From contig CAYZNS010000004.1 of assembly GCA_964479945.1 (NCBI GenBank), positions 13,715 to 77,714 of the forward strand: DNA of 64,000 bases, written 5' to 3'. Position numbers and translations under genes: made by a program. This DNA is from an uncultured Candidatus Saccharibacteria bacterium. GTDB lineage: Bacteria > Patescibacteriota > Minisyncoccia > Ryanbacterales > 2-02-FULL-48-12. The notes under the pieces were generated by a model that did not search any database, was not told the origin of the DNA, and saw only the letters and a list, made by a program, of their open reading frames with translations. This document shows positions 30,253-56,315 of the stretch, one piece after another. Numbering within the stretch: position 1 is the first letter of the stretch; each line of letters begins with the position of its first letter.

Positions 30253-30338
30253 GCAGGTATTTGCCTCGCAGGGCTTGACAAATATTTTATAACATGCTAT
30301 TCTGTCGGCAGAATTAAGAACAAGTGTCTCACCAAAGG

Positions 30339-30482
30339 GGTAAGAGTTCACAAACTCGAGTAAGCGCCAGGATTGTGACTAGCCGAGCTTTACACACACG
30401 CCAAGGCGGTGTGGATAGCTCGGCTTGGCACATCCGGAAATGGAGAAAAGCAATTATTGCTCGAGTTTGTGAGCTGTTACCC
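30339..30482. repeat. long palindromic element, copy B (GCCAGGATTGTGACTAGCCGAGCTT … AGCTCGGCTTGGCACATCC)
   Basis: outer inverted repeat GGTAAGAGTTCACAAACTCGAG/CTCGAGTTTGTGAGCTGTTACC; inner hairpin CACACACGCC…GGCGGTGTGG. Confidence 0.75.
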
Positions 30483-30491
30483 AAAGAGAAC

Positions 30492-30520
30492 TTGACAAGA
30501 ATAGTATAACATGCTATAAT
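30492..30520 (+). promoter_or_regulatory. consensus promoter TTGACA-17-TATAAT
   Basis: perfect hexamers with 17-nt spacer; ~300-nt leader to the next ORF. Confidence 0.55.
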
Positions 30521-30824
30521 ATATCCATAAAAAGAGGATGTACTTCCTAACCGCTTTTCTTTTGTGGAAAGAATGATGGAGGAGAGAGGGCAAATAGGAT
30601 CGGCACTAAATATACATAAGAGGCCGTTACTCCTTACAATCGCCTTCATCGTTCTCTCTATGAAATGAGAGGAGAGATTGGAATAGTTCTTTGTTGAAAT
30701 AACATAAGCGTTCAAACGTGGAACGTAAAGCGTAAAGCGTTAAAACGAATAGCCGGAGAAGTTCTTTGAATTAAATAGTGCTGTTGCTCATATAGATTTC
30801 TGGCCGCTTTTGAGGAGATAGAAA

Positions 30825-31256
30825 ATGTCTTTTCAAACGCGGCTGGAAACTATATTAACCAGCCCGTCAGCTTACCGAGCTACAGAAGCTGAAACGCCAG
30901 AGGAGGCACCAATGGCACGAATAGATTGCACGAAGACAAATTGCGAAACTTTTCGGCAGTTGATTGAAAAACTCAATACCGAAGGGTTCGATATAGATCA
31001 CTTTCATGCGGTTGACCTTATTGAGGTCGATGCTGACTATAGTGGAGGAGAAAAGGTGGTCTATGTCCTCGAGGGCGATATCTTGAAAAAAGGGATAGAG
31101 ATGGTCGTTCATCTCAATTTCGTCTTCGATAAAAACGGCGTCGTAGAAGATGCCGCATGGTCTTCGGGAAATGAGTTGGACGAGAGGATTCACCCTCTCG
31201 ATCAAGATCCGAGAGGCTGGTTCAAGCTTGTTGCCGACGAGTGGCACGAACGATAG
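30825..31256 (+). CDS. hypothetical acidic protein (143 aa)
   Basis: SD GAGGAG; no recognisable family; C3-rich codon usage unlike core genes. Confidence 0.45.
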   Translation: MSFQTRLETILTSPSAYRATEAETPEEAPMARIDCTKTNCETFRQLIEKLNTEGFDIDHFHAVDLIEVDADYSGGEKVVYVLEGDILKKGIEMVVHLNFVFDKNGVVEDAAWSSGNELDERIHPLDQDPRGWFKLVADEWHER

Positions 31257-31266
31257 GAGGGGTGTC

Positions 31267-31623
31267 ATGAAAGAGTTAGATAAGTTTTTTTCGGGTCTCC
31301 AGTCTTGGTACCGGACCCCCATTCGCACCATCTGCCCGTCGTCCCCCTGCCTGTATAAGGGTTGTATTCTCGAGGTTTTGCTCTCAGACCTCGAGATGGA
31401 TTGCCCTGACACAGGGCATCAGGGCTTCCTCTGCTCGGCAGAGGATGGGACGATGGTAGTCTTCGACGAAGCAGGCGGATTGGCTCGGGTCGCCGTTTTC
31501 TGTGGAAATGTGGAAACGGCGAAAAGTCTTTGCCCGGAGGAGCTCCAATGGAGCTTCTACTGGGCAGAAATGAGGGGAGGTGAAATTCACCTCCTGCCGA
31601 GCAAGAACCCCTTCCTGGAGTAA
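31267..31623 (+). CDS. hypothetical Cys-containing protein (118 aa)
   Basis: SD AGGAGGGG 7 nt upstream of ATG; immediately follows the preceding ORF. Confidence 0.45.
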   Translation: MKELDKFFSGLQSWYRTPIRTICPSSPCLYKGCILEVLLSDLEMDCPDTGHQGFLCSAEDGTMVVFDEAGGLARVAVFCGNVETAKSLCPEELQWSFYWAEMRGGEIHLLPSKNPFLE

Positions 31624-31907
31624 CCCCCGTTACAGAAACTCCTCAAAAAATTAATCCGGCCATGCACTGGCTGGCGGCAAGGAAAAGCACTTTTCCTGCG
31701 GGCATTGGTAGGTTCCGAAGCATTTCGGAAGTCCGTTCTCAACGACATCGAGAGAACAAAAACCTACTCTTCTACAAAGCTTTCAAAATGTTTTGAAGGC
31801 TTTGAGAGGAAAGTTCTTCAAAATTACATTATCTCCACTTGTTGGGATGTGTAAGGCGATAGTAGTCGCTTTATATATCTCAATAAGAAAGGAGGTGATA
31901 CTCTACC

Positions 31908-32123
31908 ATGGGCCGGTGGGTCCGATATTTTATCGGCACCCCCGAGCGGTTCATGAGGACGGTGGTTGTCTTCGGACTGATCATTGTCATCCTGAACCCG
32001 GGCTTGCTCGCGTCAGCTGCGAACCAGCTGATTGCCGAGTTAAGCCCGCTCCTCGGGCCCGCGTTGACGATCTTGATCGTCCTCGCGGGAATCCGGATGA
32101 TCCTTGGGGGTCGCCGGAAGTAA
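31908..32123 (+). CDS. hypothetical small membrane protein (71 aa, 2 TM)
   Basis: SD AAGGAGGTGA; hydrophobic; followed by GTCCAC-ttcg-GGTGGAC hairpin. Confidence 0.5.
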   Translation: MGRWVRYFIGTPERFMRTVVVFGLIIVILNPGLLASAANQLIAELSPLLGPALTILIVLAGIRMILGGRRK

Positions 32124-32328
32124 CCGTTGGACTCGGGGACGGCCTGTCCACTTCGGGTGGACGGAGGCGCGCGGATATGCGTCTTGGCAACGGAAGAGGG
32201 TTTCTGGAATTGGCCAGAACACTTCAAAAATATCAGAGGGCGACAGAGGTCCCTCCGCACAAAAACCTCTCCACAACCGAGTTTTCAAAAAAAGTTTGAA
32301 GACTCAAAGTGGAAGTTCTTTGAAACAA

Positions 32329-32449
32329 CCCAGCACTAAATTTTTGGTTTAAATAGTGTGTGACTAACCGAGCTCTATCCCGGTGCAACCGCGGATGGAC
32401 AGCTCGGTTTGGCACTATACAAATATCGAACCAAAAATTTAGTGCTGGG
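32329..32449. repeat. long palindromic element, copy C
   Basis: outer inverted repeat CCCAGCACTAAATTTTTGGTT/AACCAAAAATTTAGTGCTGGG; core GTGACTAACCGAGCTC…AGCTCGGTTTGGCAC. Confidence 0.75.
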
Positions 32450-32536
32450 CAAAAAATCAGTGATTATGTTTGCGCGGTTCATAAAAGAGCGCAATGGCTA
32501 GCATGCCAAGCATGAATAAAAAAATAATTGCTTCAA
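32438..32536 (-). CDS. possible tiny hydrophobic peptide (32 aa)
   Basis: MPVSLFEAIIFLFMLGMLAIALFYEPRKHNH; speculative, no SD. Confidence 0.2.
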
Positions 32537-32557
32537 AAAGTGACACGGGCATAGTTT

Positions 32558-32650
32558 ATTCTTTATGACGCATGGCCCATATAAAAATAATGGTTCCCAT
32601 AGCTCCGATGGCAAGATATGCAAGCATGAGTTTTTGGTTTATGTCCATGG
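32558..32650 (-). CDS. possible tiny hydrophobic peptide (30 aa)
   Basis: MDINQKLMLAYLAIGAMGTIIFIWAMRHKE; tandem with the previous one; speculative. Confidence 0.2.
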
Positions 32651-32769
32651 AATGTTTAAAATTTAACCAGCAGCGGAGATTCGGAAAAACCTCTCCCGCG
32701 AGGAGTATGTGCGGGGTCAGCTGGAGGAGTGGGAGAGAAGAAAAAAGAATTTAAACTGAGGAGGAAAAT

Positions 32770-33027
32770 ATGCCGTTTGAGTTTCCCTACTGCCAGACCC
32801 CAGACGGGGATGATTATGTCTGCCATTGCGGGGTGGCGCTGGTGAAAATCGGCGAGGATGACATGGAGTGGGAAGAAGATGATGATACCCCTCGATCGCA
32901 CATCCGATTCTTCGAGTGCACCGCATGCAAAGAATATTGCGCGGACTGCACAGGAGAATGGGTGCAAGAGGGGATATCAGGACTCGTCCCACTTAACCCG
33001 GCAGACGACAACATCCACGCCAGCTAG
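32770..33027 (+). CDS. hypothetical acidic Cys-rich small protein (Zn-ribbon-like)
   Basis: SD GAGGAGG; CHCG…CTACKEYCADC. Confidence 0.45.
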   Translation: MPFEFPYCQTPDGDDYVCHCGVALVKIGEDDMEWEEDDDTPRSHIRFFECTACKEYCADCTGEWVQEGISGLVPLNPADDNIHAS

Positions 33028-33267
33028 AGGCGGCCTGTCTAGCGCCCTTGCCATGTAAAATAAATCACGCCCCGCAACGGGATGCGTGATGTGCTCCGAC
33101 ATGGCGGAGACGGATCTCTCCACAAAGAGAGGCATCCGTGAGTGGGGACCCTGCCGAAGCAATAAGGCACGGGCGGGACCACAGCGCATGTATGGGAGGG
33201 TTACACACAAAACTCTCCCTACCTTTCTTGAGTACATGTTCTATAATGAAGATGTACTCAAATCAGG

Positions 33268-33573
33268 TTCACCCACACACCTTTTAGGAACATAGCAATG
33301 CATTATTTTTACATCCTTAAAAGTCAGATTGATAAGAAACTATACCGAGGATTTACCGGTAATCTTCGCAGACGATTTGACGAACATCAAAATGGCCGTG
33401 CTCTTTCAACGAAAAATCGTAGACCTTTTAGTTTGGTATATTATGAAGCATATAGATCAAAAACAGATGCGACCCGTCGTGAACAGCAGATGAAATTGAA
33501 TGCGAAGGCTTGGAGTCAGCTTAAGCGGCGTATTGCAACGAGTATAGAAGATACCTAAAAGGTGTGTGGGTAA
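33268..33573. repeat. 17-bp inverted repeats bracketing the GIY-YIG gene
   Basis: TTCACCCACACACCTTTTA (33268-86) vs TAAAAGGTGTGTGGGTAA (33556-73, overlapping the stop codon). Confidence 0.6.
33298..33558 (+). CDS. GIY-YIG nuclease-family small protein
   Basis: YFYILKS…KLYRGFTGNLRRRFDEHQNG…FSLVYYE…RRE matches the GIY-YIG core. Confidence 0.8.
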   Translation: MHYFYILKSQIDKKLYRGFTGNLRRRFDEHQNGRALSTKNRRPFSLVYYEAYRSKTDATRREQQMKLNAKAWSQLKRRIATSIEDT

Positions 33574-53693: not shown

Positions 53694-53777
53694 GGGTCGG
53701 TGGCGGAGCGGTCAATCGCACTAGACTGTAAATCTAGCGCCTATATGGCTACGCAGGTTCGAATCCTGCCCGGCCCA
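53694..53777 (+). tRNA. tRNA-Tyr (anticodon GTA), class II long variable arm
   Basis: GGGTCGG…CTAGA-CTGTAAA-TCTAG-CGCCTATATGGCTAC-GCAGG-TTCGAAT-CCTGC-CCGGCCC-A. Confidence 0.8.
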
Positions 53778-54081
53778 CAAAACAGGATTTTGTAAAATTT
53801 TGATGCCCACCCCATCCTCGCTTTCCGATTTTGTTTTAAAAACTTGATTTTTTCTATGTTTTTGGTTATATGCATTAGAGGGTGGTCAAGCTGGTGCTTG
53901 GCTCAATTTGTATCTTGAAAATTAAACAATGGAATATGCAATACGTTCCCTACGTGTTGCAACTTGCAACTGATGTTGAAAAAAATTACGGCGATTTAAA
54001 TATTGTCCAGGTGGCTCGCGCAGTCGCTGTGGTTCGTTCAACATCTACTTCATTGGGCTTAGCCCGGAAAGGAGAATAGTT

Positions 54082-54843
54082 ATGATCTGTAACACGACGT
54101 TGGATCGGCTGGCTCTTGAAGTTTTAAGGGCCGATGCACTGGAACTTAGAGATGTTCCGAAAAAGGTGACTAACGAAGAAGTGGAGTACTTGCCTCTTAA
54201 CACGCAACCATTTCTTTACGCCTCGGGTAACTGGGGTCCCGGTTACCTCATGATTAAGGGTCTGGTCGGCAATAAGCCGTTGATCAGGTGCCTTGGCCGC
54301 TACTTGGCGTTTGAAATCGGCGAGAAATGGTCGACCGAAATCGACTTTGTTGCCGGCAACGTTACCGGCGGCATGATCCTTGGGTGGTTGATCAGCGAGG
54401 AATTGGAGGTTCTTCTCGGCAAGCGGATCCCATTCGTTTACATTCGTGAACTTCGGAAAACTGGCGGCCAAAAGGAACTCATCACCGGATATCAAAAGAA
54501 TCAGGAAATCCCCCCCGGCTCCAGCGGCTTGGACATGGAAGAACTGGTCAACTTCGCCCAGACCATTGTCAACGGCGCGGTTTGCCTTCGCGAAGCGGGC
54601 TTCGTTTGCACGAAGGGTGCTTGCGTCCTTTACTACGACAACCCCGTCGCGAACAGGAATTTGGCCGAAGCCGGAATCGAAATGGTTTCATTGCTTACTC
54701 TTCCCAGGGTCATCGACGTGGCCGAGCGGTTTAGCACGCATCCCAAGGAACTCTTGGCTGAGTACCGCGAATTCTTGAGGAATCCGCTACAATGGCAGGC
54801 TGATCGCGGTTTGACGCATGTAGAGAAGGGGGGCACGAAATGA
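54082..54843 (+). CDS. type I phosphoribosyltransferase, orotate-PRTase-like with divergent PRPP loop
   Basis: VAGNVTGGMILGWLISEEL and GSSGLDMEELVNFAQTIVNGAVCLREAGF align to PyrE blocks but the PRPP-binding loop (GSSGLDMEELVNFAQT) lacks the canonical acidic (V/L)(V/I)DD(V/I) signature; strong SD AAAGGAG; ATGA overlap with pyrF. Confidence 0.55.
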   Translation: MICNTTLDRLALEVLRADALELRDVPKKVTNEEVEYLPLNTQPFLYASGNWGPGYLMIKGLVGNKPLIRCLGRYLAFEIGEKWSTEIDFVAGNVTGGMILGWLISEELEVLLGKRIPFVYIRELRKTGGQKELITGYQKNQEIPPGSSGLDMEELVNFAQTIVNGAVCLREAGFVCTKGACVLYYDNPVANRNLAEAGIEMVSLLTLPRVIDVAERFSTHPKELLAEYREFLRNPLQWQADRGLTHVEKGGTK

Positions 54844-55532
54844 AGAGTCCATTGCTTTTCATGGCCCTCGACGATCTCAACAACAAGGAACAGGAAACCC
54901 TGAAGGCAGTTCGAGAACTCGATCAAGTGCCTGGCAACTTCGGGTACAAGATCAATCTTGACTGTATGATGGCAGAAGGTGTCTGCGCGATCATCCGCAA
55001 ACTACCGGTCTCGCGTCCGATTTTTGCCGACACCAAGACATGGAATGGCAAACGGACAATGACCGACCTTGCCAAAATGCTGGTTGATGCCGGCGTGGAC
55101 TATTTCAACGTCTGGGTTCAGGCGGACGATCAGCTCGCAGGCGCGGTCAAGGCCACTGAGGATTCTAATACCAAAATTCTTGGAGTTACTGTGCTCACTC
55201 ATTACAGCGATGATTGGTGCAGGATGTATTTCCGCCGTTCGCTTGAGGAGACAGTTGTATTTCTTACTCAACGAGCCAAGGATCTCGGTTTGCACGGTGT
55301 CGTTCTGCCGGGGACTTGCTTGTCCGCGGTCAAAGACAGCGATCTGATCAAGACTGTGCCCGGAATCCGCATGGAGGATTTCAAGGACGACAGGCACAAG
55401 CAGGAGATCACTCCGGAATTCGCCGCTCAAAACGGAGCGGACATAGTCGTGTGCGGAAGCCCGATTATGAAGGTTCTCAACAAAGCGGACGCGCTTCGTC
55501 GGGTTCTTTCGCGATTAACTATCGCACCGTGA
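54840..55532 (+). CDS. pyrF: orotidine 5'-phosphate decarboxylase
   Basis: MALDDL, FADTKTWN(K), C-terminal VCGSPI motif. Confidence 0.75.
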   Translation: MKSPLLFMALDDLNNKEQETLKAVRELDQVPGNFGYKINLDCMMAEGVCAIIRKLPVSRPIFADTKTWNGKRTMTDLAKMLVDAGVDYFNVWVQADDQLAGAVKATEDSNTKILGVTVLTHYSDDWCRMYFRRSLEETVVFLTQRAKDLGLHGVVLPGTCLSAVKDSDLIKTVPGIRMEDFKDDRHKQEITPEFAAQNGADIVVCGSPIMKVLNKADALRRVLSRLTIAP

Positions 55533-55757
55533 ACAACAAGAGGTTCAGCGGCACCTTGTCACAACAAGACAAAGCCGCTTTTTTCTTTGCTAAAAACTTT
55601 CCCTTAAGAAACAGGGCTGTTGGGGCGAAATTATGATAAAAACGCCCCGACACGGTCGTGGCGCTTCCTTTTCTCAAGCGTTTTTGATAAAGTGAGTCCG
55701 AGCAGAGTTGTATAAAGACGCCAATCAGATAAAAAAGATAAAAGTCAGATTTAAAAA

Positions 55758-55829
55758 GCCGGAGTAGTTCAGTGGCAGAACGCCATCTTGGTAAGATGGA
55801 AGTCGAGAGTTCGATTCTCTCTTCCGGCT
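55758..55829 (+). tRNA. tRNA-Thr (anticodon GGT)
   Basis: GCCGGAG-TA-GTTC-AGTGGCA-GAAC-G-CCATC-TTGGTAA-GATGG-AAGTC-GAGAG-TTCGATT-CTCTC-TTCCGGC-T. Confidence 0.8.
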
Positions 55830-55887
55830 CTGTACTTTGCGTGATAGATATGATATATTACGAATATTATTTTTCAACACCCAATCT

Positions 55888-56050: not shown

Positions 56051-56122
56051 GGGGGTATGGTGAAACGGCTATCACGACGGTCTCCAAAACCGTTGTTCTA
56101 GGTTCGAGTCCTAGTATCCCCG
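56051..56122 (+). tRNA. tRNA-Trp (anticodon CCA)
   Basis: GGGGGTA-TG-GTGA-AACGGCTA-TCAC-G-ACGGT-CTCCAAA-ACCGT-TGTT-CTAGG-TTCGAGT-CCTAG-TATCCCC-G. Confidence 0.8.
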
Positions 56123-56315
56123 CATAAAATTTGAGCGAGCGAAAATTTTATCTCTACCTACAAATTACTCACACTAATTACAAATTTTAGTTTTAAAATT
56201 TGTTTTCGCTCAAATTTTGAGTAATTAGTAATTAGTATTTTGTAATTAGGACAAGGAAGATTAAGCAGAGAAAGCAAATATTGCTTTATTTCTACGTTTT
56301 GGTATACTATCCACC

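What the first reader, a model, noticed from the sequence alone, without database searches (positions are those of the whole stretch)
53778..55757. Isolated pyrE-like/pyrF gene pair with foreign codon usage inserted between tRNA-Tyr and tRNA-Thr
The classical tRNA-Tyr … tRNA-Thr–rpmG–tRNA-Trp neighbourhood is interrupted by two translationally coupled genes (ATGA overlap, both with strong Shine-Dalgarno sequences). Their codon usage differs: ATC rather than ATA for Ile, and C3-rich. PyrF looks canonical. The upstream PRTase aligns to OPRTase, but its PRPP-binding loop (GSSGLDMEELVNFAQT) departs from the canonical acidic (V/L)(V/I)DD(V/I) signature, so its substrate is uncertain. This pattern is consistent with a tRNA-targeted horizontal acquisition of a two-step UMP-synthase module by an organism that may otherwise lack de novo pyrimidine synthesis.
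Basis: partly seen in the sequence, partly recalled or inferred. Interest (0 to 1): 0.55.

Follow-up and report, generated by a model that had tools for sequence, protein, structure and literature searches.

The report
Mobile non-canonical UMP-synthase gene cassette
Two overlapping genes wedged between two tRNA genes are a horizontally transferred cassette, probably making UMP from orotate, that circulates among ultra-small bacteria and archaea and giant-virus-like contigs, and its decarboxylase lacks several residues considered essential in all studied enzymes of that type.

Summary
The described genes are there: a 253-aa OPRTase-fold gene (A, 54082-54843) and a 230-aa OMP-decarboxylase-fold gene (B, 54840-55532) with an ATGA overlap, lying between tRNA-Tyr and tRNA-Thr.

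Horizontal acquisition is strongly supported.
- The pair has atypical codon usage.
- It is about 86% nucleotide-identical to copies in unrelated CPR genomes.
- It keeps 53-55% GC in hosts of 36-49% GC.
- It sits next to tRNA genes far more often than chance.
- In relatives it is flanked by 140-209-nt inverted repeats and a large serine recombinase.
- Related contigs have tRNA-Tyr and tRNA-Thr only 27-49 nt apart.

"PyrF looks canonical" is wrong. The B clade invariantly replaces Asp (fourth charged-network residue) with Asn, the pyrimidine Ser with His, and all three phosphate-gripper side chains.

The PRTase keeps its acidic pair (Glu-Glu). Its type is fused to a canonical OMP decarboxylase beside CAD and DHODH genes in one contig, so it is most likely a true OPRTase.

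DHODH-like genes adjoin A-B in about five loci. A-B fusions occur in giant-virus-like contigs.

Best reading: a mobile, non-canonical two-step orotate-to-UMP module. A different substrate for B is not excluded.

The parts
53694..53778 (+). tRNA-Tyr(GTA): host gene at the left edge of the insertion
   Evidence: ARAGORN; Rfam 61 bits. In related contigs L072, L073 and L078 this tRNA is followed after 27-49 nt by tRNA-Thr(GGT).
53751..53802 (+). Junction 'core': T-arm and 3' end of the tRNA plus AAAACAGGATTTTGTAAAA. It is shared with the 3' ends of tRNA-Val (L009) and tRNA-Lys (L001), which precede the same cassette. Candidate attL-like site.
   Evidence: blastn 84-85% over 47-51 nt; alignment A3.
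53822..53934 (+). Conserved cassette leader with hairpin GGTCAAGC-TGGT-GCTTGGCT (53884-53903). Present upstream of A in all high-identity copies.
   Evidence: blastn 86% to L009; alignment A5; hairpin flagged.
53925..54065 (+). About 140-nt conserved structured leader found in only some copies (window, L015, L019). Probably non-coding.
   Evidence: 88% column identity. The ATG of the 47-aa ORF is not conserved. Predicted hairpins, z = -2.3. No Rfam match.
54082..54843 (+). Gene A: OPRTase-fold phosphoribosyltransferase of the 'EELVN[FY][AG]xT' type, 253 aa
   Evidence: NCBIfam pyrE 69 bits, below the 245 cut-off. PDB OPRTases E about 1e-8. AF2 pLDDT 92; Foldseek 4ohc TM 0.75-0.88. Family analysis.
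54840..55532 (+). Gene B: OMP-decarboxylase-fold protein, 230 aa. Active-site set is K37-D64-K66-N69, H121, R185-H186, Q188, S207.
   Evidence: Pfam PF00215 77 bits. Below the pyrF equivalog cut-offs. AF2 pLDDT 94.5; Foldseek 1eix/1dbt TM 0.82-0.88. Residue analysis.
55549..55590 (+). Terminator-like hairpin (AGCGGC...GCCGCT followed by TTTTTTCTTTG), conserved in all cassette copies
   Evidence: Sequence; alignment A4.
55596..55607 (.). Right-hand end of nucleotide homology with the other cassette copies. The inverted-repeat arms seen in L001, L015 and L009 are missing here.
   Evidence: blastn end points; alignment A4; TIR blast finds nothing in the window.
55758..55830 (+). tRNA-Thr(GGT): host gene at the right edge, followed by rpmG and tRNA-Trp

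Best explanation
The 1.98-kb stretch between tRNA-Tyr and tRNA-Thr is a horizontally acquired cassette that has since been immobilised.

What it encodes (inferred): a two-step orotate-to-UMP module.
- Gene A is a divergent OPRTase that would condense orotate with PRPP to give OMP.
- Gene B is translationally coupled to A. It is a divergent OMP-decarboxylase-fold enzyme that would decarboxylate OMP to UMP.
- B keeps the Asp-x-Lys catalytic core. It has a rebuilt ribose, phosphate and pyrimidine binding shell.

How it moves (shown by comparison with other loci):
- The A-B unit travels as one piece among CPR bacteria and DPANN archaea. It also occurs in IMG/VR viral contigs, and as a single fused protein in giant-virus-like contigs.
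- In its most recent wave it is a 53-55% GC cassette bounded by long inverted repeats. It lies next to a large serine recombinase and preferentially beside tRNA genes.
- The window copy has lost the repeats and the recombinase, so it is probably fixed.

Not shown: no enzymatic activity has been tested. The orotate-to-OMP-to-UMP chemistry rests on fold, retained catalytic residues, gene fusions and gene neighbourhoods.
For: HGT and mobility:
- The pair is 84-88% nt identical to copies in L001, L009/L014, L015 and L016, whose flanks share no similarity with the window.
- Pair GC is 53-55% against flank GC of 36-49% in eight loci.
- Codon usage is atypical.
- Uninterrupted tRNA-Tyr-(27-49 nt)-tRNA-Thr(GGT) sites occur in L072, L073 and L078.
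- A tRNA lies within 500 bp of the pair in 9 of 32 loci against 2.5 expected (P about 2.5e-4).
- Inverted repeats of 140-209 nt at 97-100% identity flank the pair in L001 and L015; a 24-nt perfect pair flanks it in L009.
- Homologous large serine recombinases lie next to the pair in L001 and L015, with a relic in L009. A tyrosine integrase lies next to it in L003-5.
- The same arrangement as the window appears in three independent assemblies.

Function:
- OPRTase and OMPDC folds.
- A is followed directly by B in almost every locus that extends far enough (about 31 of 36 GTDB loci).
- A-B fusions exist in both orders.
- dN/dS is 0.06-0.15.
- A keeps R122/K126 (= R99/K103 of E. coli PyrE) and the acidic pair.
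- B keeps D11, K37, D64, K66, T73 and PGIR.
- An A-type PRT domain is fused to a canonical OMPDC beside DHODH and a 2175-aa CAD protein in L081.
- DHODH-family genes adjoin A-B in L021 (PyrD-PyrK fusion), L033, L036/L037 and L042. The B genes in L021, L042 and L036/L037 carry the same non-canonical signature; the L033 B-like gene is more divergent.
Against: B replaces residues that are invariant in 43 of 43 canonical relatives and whose loss is costly in yeast OMPDC.
- D96' of the charged network becomes Asn.
- S154 becomes His (S154A costs 5.8 kcal/mol).
- Q215 becomes His.
- The Y217/Arg position becomes Gln or Glu.
- R235 becomes Ser (R235A costs 5.6 kcal/mol).
- The triple gripper mutant loses about 3e8-fold in kcat/Km (PMC12874384).

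A replaces conserved OPRTase residues: D to M, R to I, H105 to G, E to T, and G to A in the 5-phosphate loop.

Both proteins score far below curated equivalog cut-offs.

No pyrB, pyrC or carB lies within 8 kb of any CPR or DPANN A-B locus. The source of orotate is therefore unknown.

The window copy has no recombinase, no inverted repeats, and only a weak 7-nt repeat (AAACAGG) at its two homology breakpoints.
Confidence: 0.72

Rival explanations
1. A and B form a two-step pathway on a different substrate. This could be a carboxylated heterocycle other than orotate, or a ribosyl donor or nucleotide with a different 5' group. The product would be a nucleotide other than UMP, for example a modified nucleotide useful to mobile elements and viruses.
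For: - B has clade-invariant replacements exactly at the residues that read the pyrimidine (Ser to His, Gln to His) and the 5'-phosphate (Arg to Ser, Arg to Gln/Glu). New conserved basic residues appear (R72, R185, K171, K211).
- A's 5-phosphate loop and several conserved OPRTase residues are changed in parallel.
- The pair is carried by mobile cassettes and IMG/VR viral contigs.
- Some CPR have perfectly canonical fused OPRT-OMPDC (P0452), so fast evolution alone does not explain the changes.
Against: - An A-type domain works beside a canonical OMPDC, DHODH and CAD in L081.
- DHODH-family genes adjoin A-B in about five loci.
- The catalytic Asp-x-Lys, the ribose-binding Asp/Lys/Thr and the PGIR arginine are retained.
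- No extra tailoring enzyme co-occurs consistently.
Confidence: 0.17
2. The pair is vertically inherited host DNA. Its unusual codon usage would reflect high expression, and the tRNA neighbourhood would be coincidence.
For: - GC3 of 0.61-0.64 is within the range of rpoC and clpB.
- There is no integrase or clear att duplication in the window.
Against: - About 86% nt identity to copies in genomes with unrelated flanks and 36-44% GC.
- Uninterrupted tRNA-Tyr/tRNA-Thr sites in relatives.
- Inverted repeats and recombinases in sister copies.
- tRNA association P about 2.5e-4.
Confidence: 0.02
3. B is not a nucleotide decarboxylase at all. It would be a sugar-phosphate enzyme of the HUMPS branch (KGPDC/HPS-like), with A acting as a PRT-fold regulator such as PyrR.
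For: - Weak hits of B to HxlA and KGPDC models (E about 2e-3).
- A His at the end of the TVLT strand recalls His136 of KGPDC. This is recalled from memory and was not tested.
Against: - The top 16 structural matches and nearly all of the top 50 are OMPDCs. Seven are chains of 8dop/8ek7/8doq, deposited under an enolase-phosphatase title.
- hhalign to canonical OMPDC gives probability 100%, E = 8e-46.
- B has Lys, not the metal-binding Glu, on strand 2.
- A keeps the catalytic loop R/K and the acidic pair.
- There are obligate A-B fusions.
Confidence: 0.03
4. The two genes are decaying or inactive passengers (pseudo-enzymes) on a selfish element.
For: Loss of 'essential' residues in B. The window copy has lost its mobility features.
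Against: - dN/dS of 0.06-0.15 over dS of 0.4-1.0.
- 16 invariant and about 40 nearly invariant positions in B, and 31 invariant positions in A, across sequences only 38-90% identical.
- Intact ORFs, SD sequences and coupling in all loci.
Confidence: 0.03

Closest known systems
OMP decarboxylase (PyrF, EC 4.1.1.23; Pfam PF00215, TIGR01740 / NF001273)
   Same: - (beta/alpha)8 fold (TM 0.82-0.88 to 1eix/1dbt).
- Profile-profile probability 100%.
- Retained Asp (strand 1), Lys (strand 2), Asp-x-Lys (strand 3), Thr of the partner subunit, the TVLT strand, PGIR, and the Gly-x-Pro phosphate loop.
- Always coupled to an OPRTase-fold gene.
   Different: - The fourth residue of the K-D-K-D network is Asn.
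- Ile-Pro-Asn becomes Gly-x-Arg.
- Ser after TVLT is His.
- Asp-Gln-x-Arg becomes Arg-His-x-Gln/Glu.
- The gripper Arg is Ser (Arg is kept in a few fused forms).
- It scores below both curated equivalog cut-offs.
Orotate phosphoribosyltransferase (PyrE, EC 2.4.2.10), Bacillus/Streptococcus/Burkholderia subtype with C-terminal helical extension (PDB 2aee, 3dez, 4ohc)
   Same: - Fold (the top 39 Foldseek hits are all OPRTases).
- Length and C-terminal extension ending in a conserved Trp.
- F-x-Y-x-S-G...P-x-Y hood motif.
- Flexible-loop Arg and Lys.
- Acidic pair.
- Y-Y in place of E. coli R156, as in the Gram-positive subtype.
   Different: - The motif EELVN[FY][AG]xT replaces EDL[IV][ST]TGGS.
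- Loss of the conserved Asp (Y-x-D), Arg, His105 and Glu.
- No Pfam PF00156 hit for the window protein.
- 69 bits against a 245-bit cut-off.
- NCBI and UniRef call the cluster 'hypothetical / uncharacterized'.
Bifunctional UMP synthase (eukaryotic UMPS; trypanosomatid OMPDC-OPRT, PDB 3qw4)
   Same: The same two folds are functionally coupled, here by a 4-nt overlap. In relatives they form real fusions in both orders (P0265, P0267, P0430 and others).
   Different: The fused relatives carry the same non-canonical A and B signatures and occur in giant-virus-like contigs. Only one known chimera (P0277) joins an A-type PRT to a canonical OMPDC.
tRNA-associated integrative elements / genomic islets
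   Same: - Insertion directly downstream of a tRNA gene.
- Foreign composition.
- Recombinase genes in sister copies.
- Imperfect repeat of the tRNA 3' end at the far side (L009: 14 of 17 nt).
   Different: - Tiny: about 1.8-3.9 kb with a two-gene cargo.
- The recombinase is a large serine recombinase rather than the usual tyrosine integrase.
- The cassette is bounded by long inverted, not direct, repeats.
- Different tRNA species are used (Tyr, Val, Lys, Thr, His, Ile, Leu).
- The window copy lacks the recombinase and the repeats.

Membership tests
OMP decarboxylase (PyrF) | OMPDC (beta/alpha)8-barrel fold and Pfam PF00215 above the gathering score | tested here: met
   PF00215 77 bits against a cut-off of 27. 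Foldseek TM 0.82-0.88 to 1dbt, 1eix and 8cso. hhalign probability 100%.
OMP decarboxylase (PyrF) | Score above the curated equivalog cut-off (NF001273, TIGR01740) | tested here: not met
   95.1 < 193 and 77.3 < 92.3 bits.
OMP decarboxylase (PyrF) | Charged network Lys-Asp-Lys-Asp' (D-x-K-x-x-D motif) | tested here: not met
   K37, D64 and K66 are present. The fourth residue is Asn69 in 72 of 73 clade members against Asp in 43 of 43 canonical sequences.
OMP decarboxylase (PyrF) | Pyrimidine/loop-clamp Ser (Sc S154 / Mt S127) and phosphodianion gripper (Gln, Tyr/Arg, Arg) | tested here: not met
   H121, H186, Q188 and S207 replace S, Q, R and R. Their roles and energetic cost are taken from PMC12874384.
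OMP decarboxylase (PyrF) | Decarboxylation of OMP to UMP | not testable with these tools
   Inferred only from obligate pairing with an OPRTase-type gene and from DHODH neighbours.
Orotate phosphoribosyltransferase (PyrE) | Type I PRT fold with the OPRTase hood | tested here: met
   The top 39 Foldseek PDB hits are OPRTases, TM up to 0.88. phmmer to 2aee and 4ohc gives E about 2e-8.
Orotate phosphoribosyltransferase (PyrE) | Score above curated pyrE cut-offs / Pfam PF00156 | tested here: not met
   NF001729 69 < 245 and TIGR00336 29.6 < 106.8. No Pfam hit at E <= 0.1.
Orotate phosphoribosyltransferase (PyrE) | PRPP motif: hydrophobic run, two acidic residues, then a 5-phosphate loop (S/T)-x-G-x-(S/T) | tested here: inconclusive
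   The acidic pair E153-E154 is invariant. The loop is N-F-A-Q-T: the Gly is Ala in the CPR clade and Gly in many fused relatives, and the final Thr is kept.
Orotate phosphoribosyltransferase (PyrE) | Flexible catalytic loop Arg99 / Lys103 (E. coli numbering) | tested here: met
   R122 and K126 are invariant in 78 of 78. His105 is replaced by Gly.
Orotate phosphoribosyltransferase (PyrE) | Works within a pyrimidine pathway (makes OMP) | tested here: inconclusive
   By context only. An A-type domain is fused to a canonical OMPDC next to DHODH and CAD in L081. DHODH lies next to A-B in L021, L033, L036/37 and L042.
tRNA-targeting integrative mobile element | Insertion at a tRNA gene, with an uninterrupted site in relatives | tested here: met
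   tRNA-Tyr and tRNA-Thr(GGT) are 27-49 nt apart in L072, L073 and L078 against 1979 nt here. tRNA adjacency is enriched.
tRNA-targeting integrative mobile element | Own recombinase/integrase inside the element | tested here: not met
   None in the window copy. Present next to sister copies: serine recombinase in L001 and L015, tyrosine integrase in L003-5.
tRNA-targeting integrative mobile element | Flanking att repeats duplicating the tRNA 3' end | tested here: inconclusive
   Window: only AAACAGG (7 nt) at both homology breakpoints. L009: GTCCACCAAACAGGATT / GTCCACCAAATTGAATT, 14 of 17. L001: a 22-nt core is present three times.
tRNA-targeting integrative mobile element | Composition foreign to the host and near-identical copies in unrelated genomes | tested here: met

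The most novel reading that the evidence does not exclude
The B proteins may be a natural, widespread class of OMP-decarboxylase-fold enzymes, found in CPR bacteria, DPANN archaea and giant-virus-like contigs. One of two things would be true.
(a) They reach OMP decarboxylation without the canonical fourth Asp, the clamp Ser and all three phosphodianion-gripper side chains, using a re-wired binding shell (R72', R185, H121, H186).
(b) They decarboxylate a different nucleotide made by their dedicated PRTase.

In either case they travel as a self-contained, inverted-repeat-bounded, serine-recombinase-associated cassette. That cassette would hand a nucleotide-synthesis step to organisms that otherwise scavenge nucleotides.
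Probability: 0.3. Interest if true: 0.8.

Novelty: new variant of a known kind. Interest (0 to 1): 0.62.

Why it matters
OMP decarboxylase is a textbook model for extreme enzymatic rate enhancement. The roles of its charged network and phosphodianion gripper have been mapped in detail. A large natural family under strong purifying selection rewrites exactly those residues while staying wedded to an OPRTase. It is either a natural experiment in alternative transition-state stabilisation or an unrecognised nucleotide-modifying pathway.

Ecologically, CPR and DPANN organisms are thought to depend on hosts for nucleotides. A portable two-gene module, sometimes joined by a DHODH, would turn orotate into UMP. 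It is exchanged across CPR bacteria and DPANN archaea and also occurs in viral contigs. It would show how such organisms patch their metabolism.

Public annotation calls protein A 'hypothetical'. Pathway reconstructions therefore probably under-count this capability.

Tried and rejected
- PADLOC found no defence-system match. PHROGs gave only a weak generic PRT hit. A defence-system reading was dropped.
- Rfam, at gathering threshold on the whole window and at E <= 1 on 53700-55800, found only tRNAs. There is no known riboswitch upstream.
- A search for an att duplication of the tRNA-Tyr 3' end inside the window gave only chance-level short repeats.
- The first metagenome pattern (tRNA-Tyr 3' end, 0-30 nt, this exact tRNA-Thr 5' end) found nothing, because tRNA-Thr differs in relatives. 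The second scan, with the tRNA-Tyr 3' half alone, worked.
- Literature searches for CPR/Patescibacteria plus orotate or pyrE found nothing specific.
- tBLASTn with E. coli CarA, CarB, PyrB, PyrI, PyrC, PyrD and PyrE against the window and 49 loci found no pyrB, pyrC or carB near any CPR or DPANN A-B pair. It found only PyrD-like genes.
- The PyrK-PRT-OMPDC triple fusions (P0452, P0472) looked at first like a direct link between A/B and DHODH. Their PRT and OMPDC domains proved canonical, so they were not used as evidence.
- The 47-aa ORF upstream of A was rejected as a gene because its start codon is not conserved.
- The B/L017 dN/dS values are frame-shifted by indels and were ignored.
Full report
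**1. What is in the sequence**

ARAGORN and Rfam place tRNA-Tyr(GTA) at 53694-53778, tRNA-Thr(GGT) at 55758-55830 and tRNA-Trp at 56051-56123. The ORF between Thr and Trp is ribosomal protein L33.

Between tRNA-Tyr and tRNA-Thr lie two ORFs. A is 54082-54843 (253 aa) and B is 54840-55532 (230 aa). They overlap by ATGA, and each is preceded by a Shine-Dalgarno-like sequence. A terminator-like hairpin follows B.

The window is about 49% GC. Its closest protein relatives come from Candidate Phyla Radiation (CPR/Patescibacteria) bacteria such as Falkowbacteria and Nealsonbacteria.

**2. Codon usage**

I compared the pair with 40 other ORFs of the window.
- The pair is strongly deviant for Ile (ATC 18 / ATT 6 / ATA 1; p = 1e-6), Val, Arg (AGG), Thr and Lys.
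- C at third positions is 0.34 against 0.25.
- The two genes rank among the three worst of 42 in synonymous-codon likelihood.
- GC3 alone is not exceptional.

**3. The pair is a horizontally transferred cassette**

- Nucleotide identity. The window copy is 84-88% identical over about 1.5-1.7 kb to copies in L001, L009/L014, L015 and L016. The flanks of those loci have no nucleotide similarity to the window.
- Composition. In the eight loci of this high-identity clade the pair is always 53-55% GC. The host flanks range from 36% to 49%.
- Selection. dN/dS between copies is 0.06-0.15 with dS of 0.4-1.0. The genes are functional and the copies are not very young, yet they have not drifted toward host composition.
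- Uninterrupted sites. Related CPR contigs with a nearly identical tRNA-Tyr show it followed after 27-49 nt by tRNA-Thr(GGT). In L072 the order is then rpmG and tRNA-Trp. The 1979-nt gap in the window is therefore an insertion.
- Independent assemblies. The same arrangement as the window is found in three independent assemblies, so it is not a chimera.

**4. Mobility features in sister copies**

- L001. The pair is bracketed by 177-nt inverted repeats (97% identical). Immediately upstream, a 523-aa large serine recombinase gene is bracketed by 209-nt perfect inverted repeats. The whole structure abuts the 3' end of tRNA-Lys.
- L015. The pair has 140-nt perfect inverted repeats. A homologous recombinase (49% identity) sits in the same position.
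- L009. It has a 24-nt perfect inverted repeat, a relic of the recombinase C-terminus, a tRNA-Val directly upstream, and a 14-of-17 repeat of the tRNA 3' end downstream.
- Nealsonbacteria loci L003-5. A tyrosine integrase lies upstream.
- Assembly behaviour. Several assemblies break just beside the cassette, and one contig (L002) begins and ends in the repeat.

Across 32 loci, a tRNA gene lies within 500 bp of the pair in 9 cases against 2.5 expected (P about 2.5e-4).

The window copy retains the cassette interior (about 53822-55607). It also retains a 50-nt junction 'core' shared with the tRNA-Val and tRNA-Lys junctions (53751-53802). It has neither the inverted repeats nor a recombinase, and only a 7-nt repeat at its breakpoints. 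It looks like a stabilised remnant.

**5. What the proteins are**

Both AlphaFold models are confident (pLDDT 94.5 and 92.4). B superposes on OMP decarboxylases (TM 0.82-0.88). A superposes on OPRTases; the top 39 hits are all OPRTases.

Both fall far below NCBI's curated equivalog thresholds (pyrF 95 < 193; pyrE 69 < 245). A has no Pfam hit.

**6. B is not canonical**

I aligned 73 clade members with 43 canonical PyrF sequences (MAFFT; HMMER; hhalign probability 100%).

The clade keeps:
- Asp11, Lys37, Asp64-x-Lys66 and Thr73
- the TVLT strand
- PGIR
- Gly206-x-Pro208

The clade replaces residues that are invariant in the canonical set:

| Canonical residue | Clade residue | Note |
|---|---|---|
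| Asp | Asn69 | fourth member of the K-D-K-D' network |
| Ile | Gly70 | |
| Asn | Arg72 | |
| Ser | His121 | |
| Ser | Pro157 | |
| Asp-Gln-x-Arg | Arg185-His186-x-Gln/Glu188 | |
| Arg | Ser207 | |

In yeast numbering these are D96', S154, Q215, the Y217 position and R235. The cited review reports the following costs (PMC12874384):
- S154A: 5.8 kcal/mol
- R235A: 5.6 kcal/mol
- Q215A: 2.2 kcal/mol
- Triple gripper mutant: kcat/Km falls from 1.1e7 to 0.037 M-1 s-1

**7. A is a distinct OPRTase type**

The acidic pair is present (Glu153-Glu154). The flexible-loop Arg122 and Lys126 correspond to R99 and K103 of E. coli PyrE.

The differences are:
- the 5-phosphate loop (N-F-A-Q-T)
- loss of a conserved Asp, Arg, His105 and Glu
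- Trp51 at a Lys/Arg position

An exhaustive search of 1.84 billion representatives found 62 clusters at E <= 1e-30. They share the motif EELVN[FY][AG]xT.

**8. Evidence for function**

- Pairing. A is followed directly by B in almost every locus that extends far enough (about 31 of 36 GTDB species loci). These include DPANN archaea (Aenigmatarchaeota, Woesearchaeota) and a Bathyarchaeia contig.
- Fusions. A-B fusions occur in both orders, and their B domains keep Asn69, Gly70, Arg72 and His121.
- The chimera. P0277 joins an A-type PRT to a fully canonical, eukaryote-like OMPDC. On its 26%-GC contig it sits beside a DHODH gene and a 2175-aa CPSase-ATCase (CAD-like) gene. That is a complete pyrimidine gene set using an A-type PRT, which argues that A-type enzymes make OMP.
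- DHODH neighbours. DHODH-family genes lie next to A-B in L021 (a PyrD-PyrK fusion in a complete Nealsonbacteria genome), L033, L036/L037 and L042, the last together with an MFS transporter. The B genes in L021, L042 and L036/L037 carry the non-canonical signature; the L033 B-like gene is more divergent.

Taken together, the most likely function is orotate to OMP to UMP.

This remains an inference. No pyrB, pyrC or carB lies near any CPR or DPANN pair. I could not survey whole genomes.

**9. Distribution in viruses**

- A-B fusions occur in contigs with giant-virus-like gene content: Ras, kinases, ankyrin repeats, C1 peptidase, 26% GC (L082).
- They also occur in an IMG/VR giant-virus MAG (L086).
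- Unfused pairs occur in two other IMG/VR contigs (L084, L085).

**10. Comparison with known systems and novelty**

The closest known systems are PyrE/PyrF and bifunctional UMP synthase. The fold, the order of the steps and the coupling are the same.

Membership of the curated PyrF and PyrE families fails on thresholds. For PyrF it also fails on defining active-site residues.

The vehicle resembles a tRNA-associated integrative islet, but differs in several ways:
- it is very small
- it is bounded by inverted repeats
- it is linked to a serine recombinase

I found no description of this family or cassette in the searchable literature. NCBI and UniRef label protein A as hypothetical or uncharacterized, while JGI auto-annotation calls it OPRTase.

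I rate it a new variant of a known kind.

**11. Verdict**

- The HGT interpretation is supported.
- The biochemical detail is inverted: the decarboxylase, not the PRTase, is the odd partner.
- Interest is 0.62. It rests on the naturally rewired OMPDC active site and on the portable nucleotide-synthesis cassette shared by CPR bacteria, DPANN archaea and viral contigs.

Noticed in passing
window 53925-54065 (also L015 1425-1565, L019 1020-1160): A roughly 140-nt segment just upstream of gene A is more conserved (88% column identity) than the synonymous sites of the genes. It has three predicted hairpins and no Rfam match. The start codon of the 47-aa ORF called there is not conserved. It may be an undescribed cis-regulatory leader RNA. 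It is present in only some cassette copies.
   Followed up: partly
window 53884-53903 (all high-identity cassette copies): A conserved hairpin, GGTCAAGC-TGGT-GCTTGGCT followed by CAATTTGTA, lies about 180 nt (or about 40 nt in copies without the leader) upstream of A. There is a one-sided G-U to A-U change between copies. Its role is unknown; it could be an attenuator or a protein-binding site.
   Followed up: partly
L001 7131-11011: Two adjacent segments, a serine recombinase gene and the A-B pair, are each bracketed by long near-perfect inverted repeats (209 nt at 100%, 177 nt at 97%). The repeats share a 22-nt core that is also the 3' flank of tRNA-Lys. The middle copy reads like a joined right-end/left-end junction. 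This could be an invertible or excising system. An assembly artefact is not excluded.
   Followed up: partly
L081 (Logan ERR3534985 contig, 26% GC): A compact cluster holds DHODH, a 2175-aa CAD-like polyprotein (CPSase + ATCase) and an OMPDC-PRT fusion, followed by ankyrin-repeat and GT25 genes. It looks like a giant-virus or symbiont contig encoding most or all of de novo pyrimidine synthesis.
   Followed up: partly
P0452, P0472 (Candidatus Parcubacteria, 751-761 aa): Triple fusion of the DHODH electron-transfer subunit (PyrK) with a canonical, eukaryote-like OPRTase and OMPDC. Some CPR therefore use a quite different, canonical solution for the same steps.
   Followed up: partly
P0241-P0253 and similar; L044, L046, L047; L033, L042: A-type PRTases also occur as 370-400-aa forms that match A in three stretches. 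They appear to have a roughly 130-aa insertion or partial duplication around the flexible catalytic loop. There are also 408-437-aa forms with a partial tandem duplication of the PRT domain.
   Followed up: no
L058-L063 (Falkowbacteria contigs): In six independent assemblies the contig ends 160-520 bp upstream of gene A. A repeat or a polymorphic junction just left of the cassette would produce this.
   Followed up: no
L021 7198-7812; L036 4161-4925; L042 4779-5927: Other nucleotide-related neighbours of A-B are an HD-domain 5'-deoxynucleotidase-like gene, an inositol-monophosphatase-family gene directly after B, and an MFS transporter beside the DHODH. The transporter could be an orotate or dihydroorotate importer.
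   Followed up: no
window 33298-33558 and about 30300-33300: A small low-GC ORF (39% GC) begins MHYFYILKSQ...YRGFTGNLRRRFDEHQ and looks like a GIY-YIG-type nuclease domain. It borders a stretch with poor coding signal.
   Followed up: no
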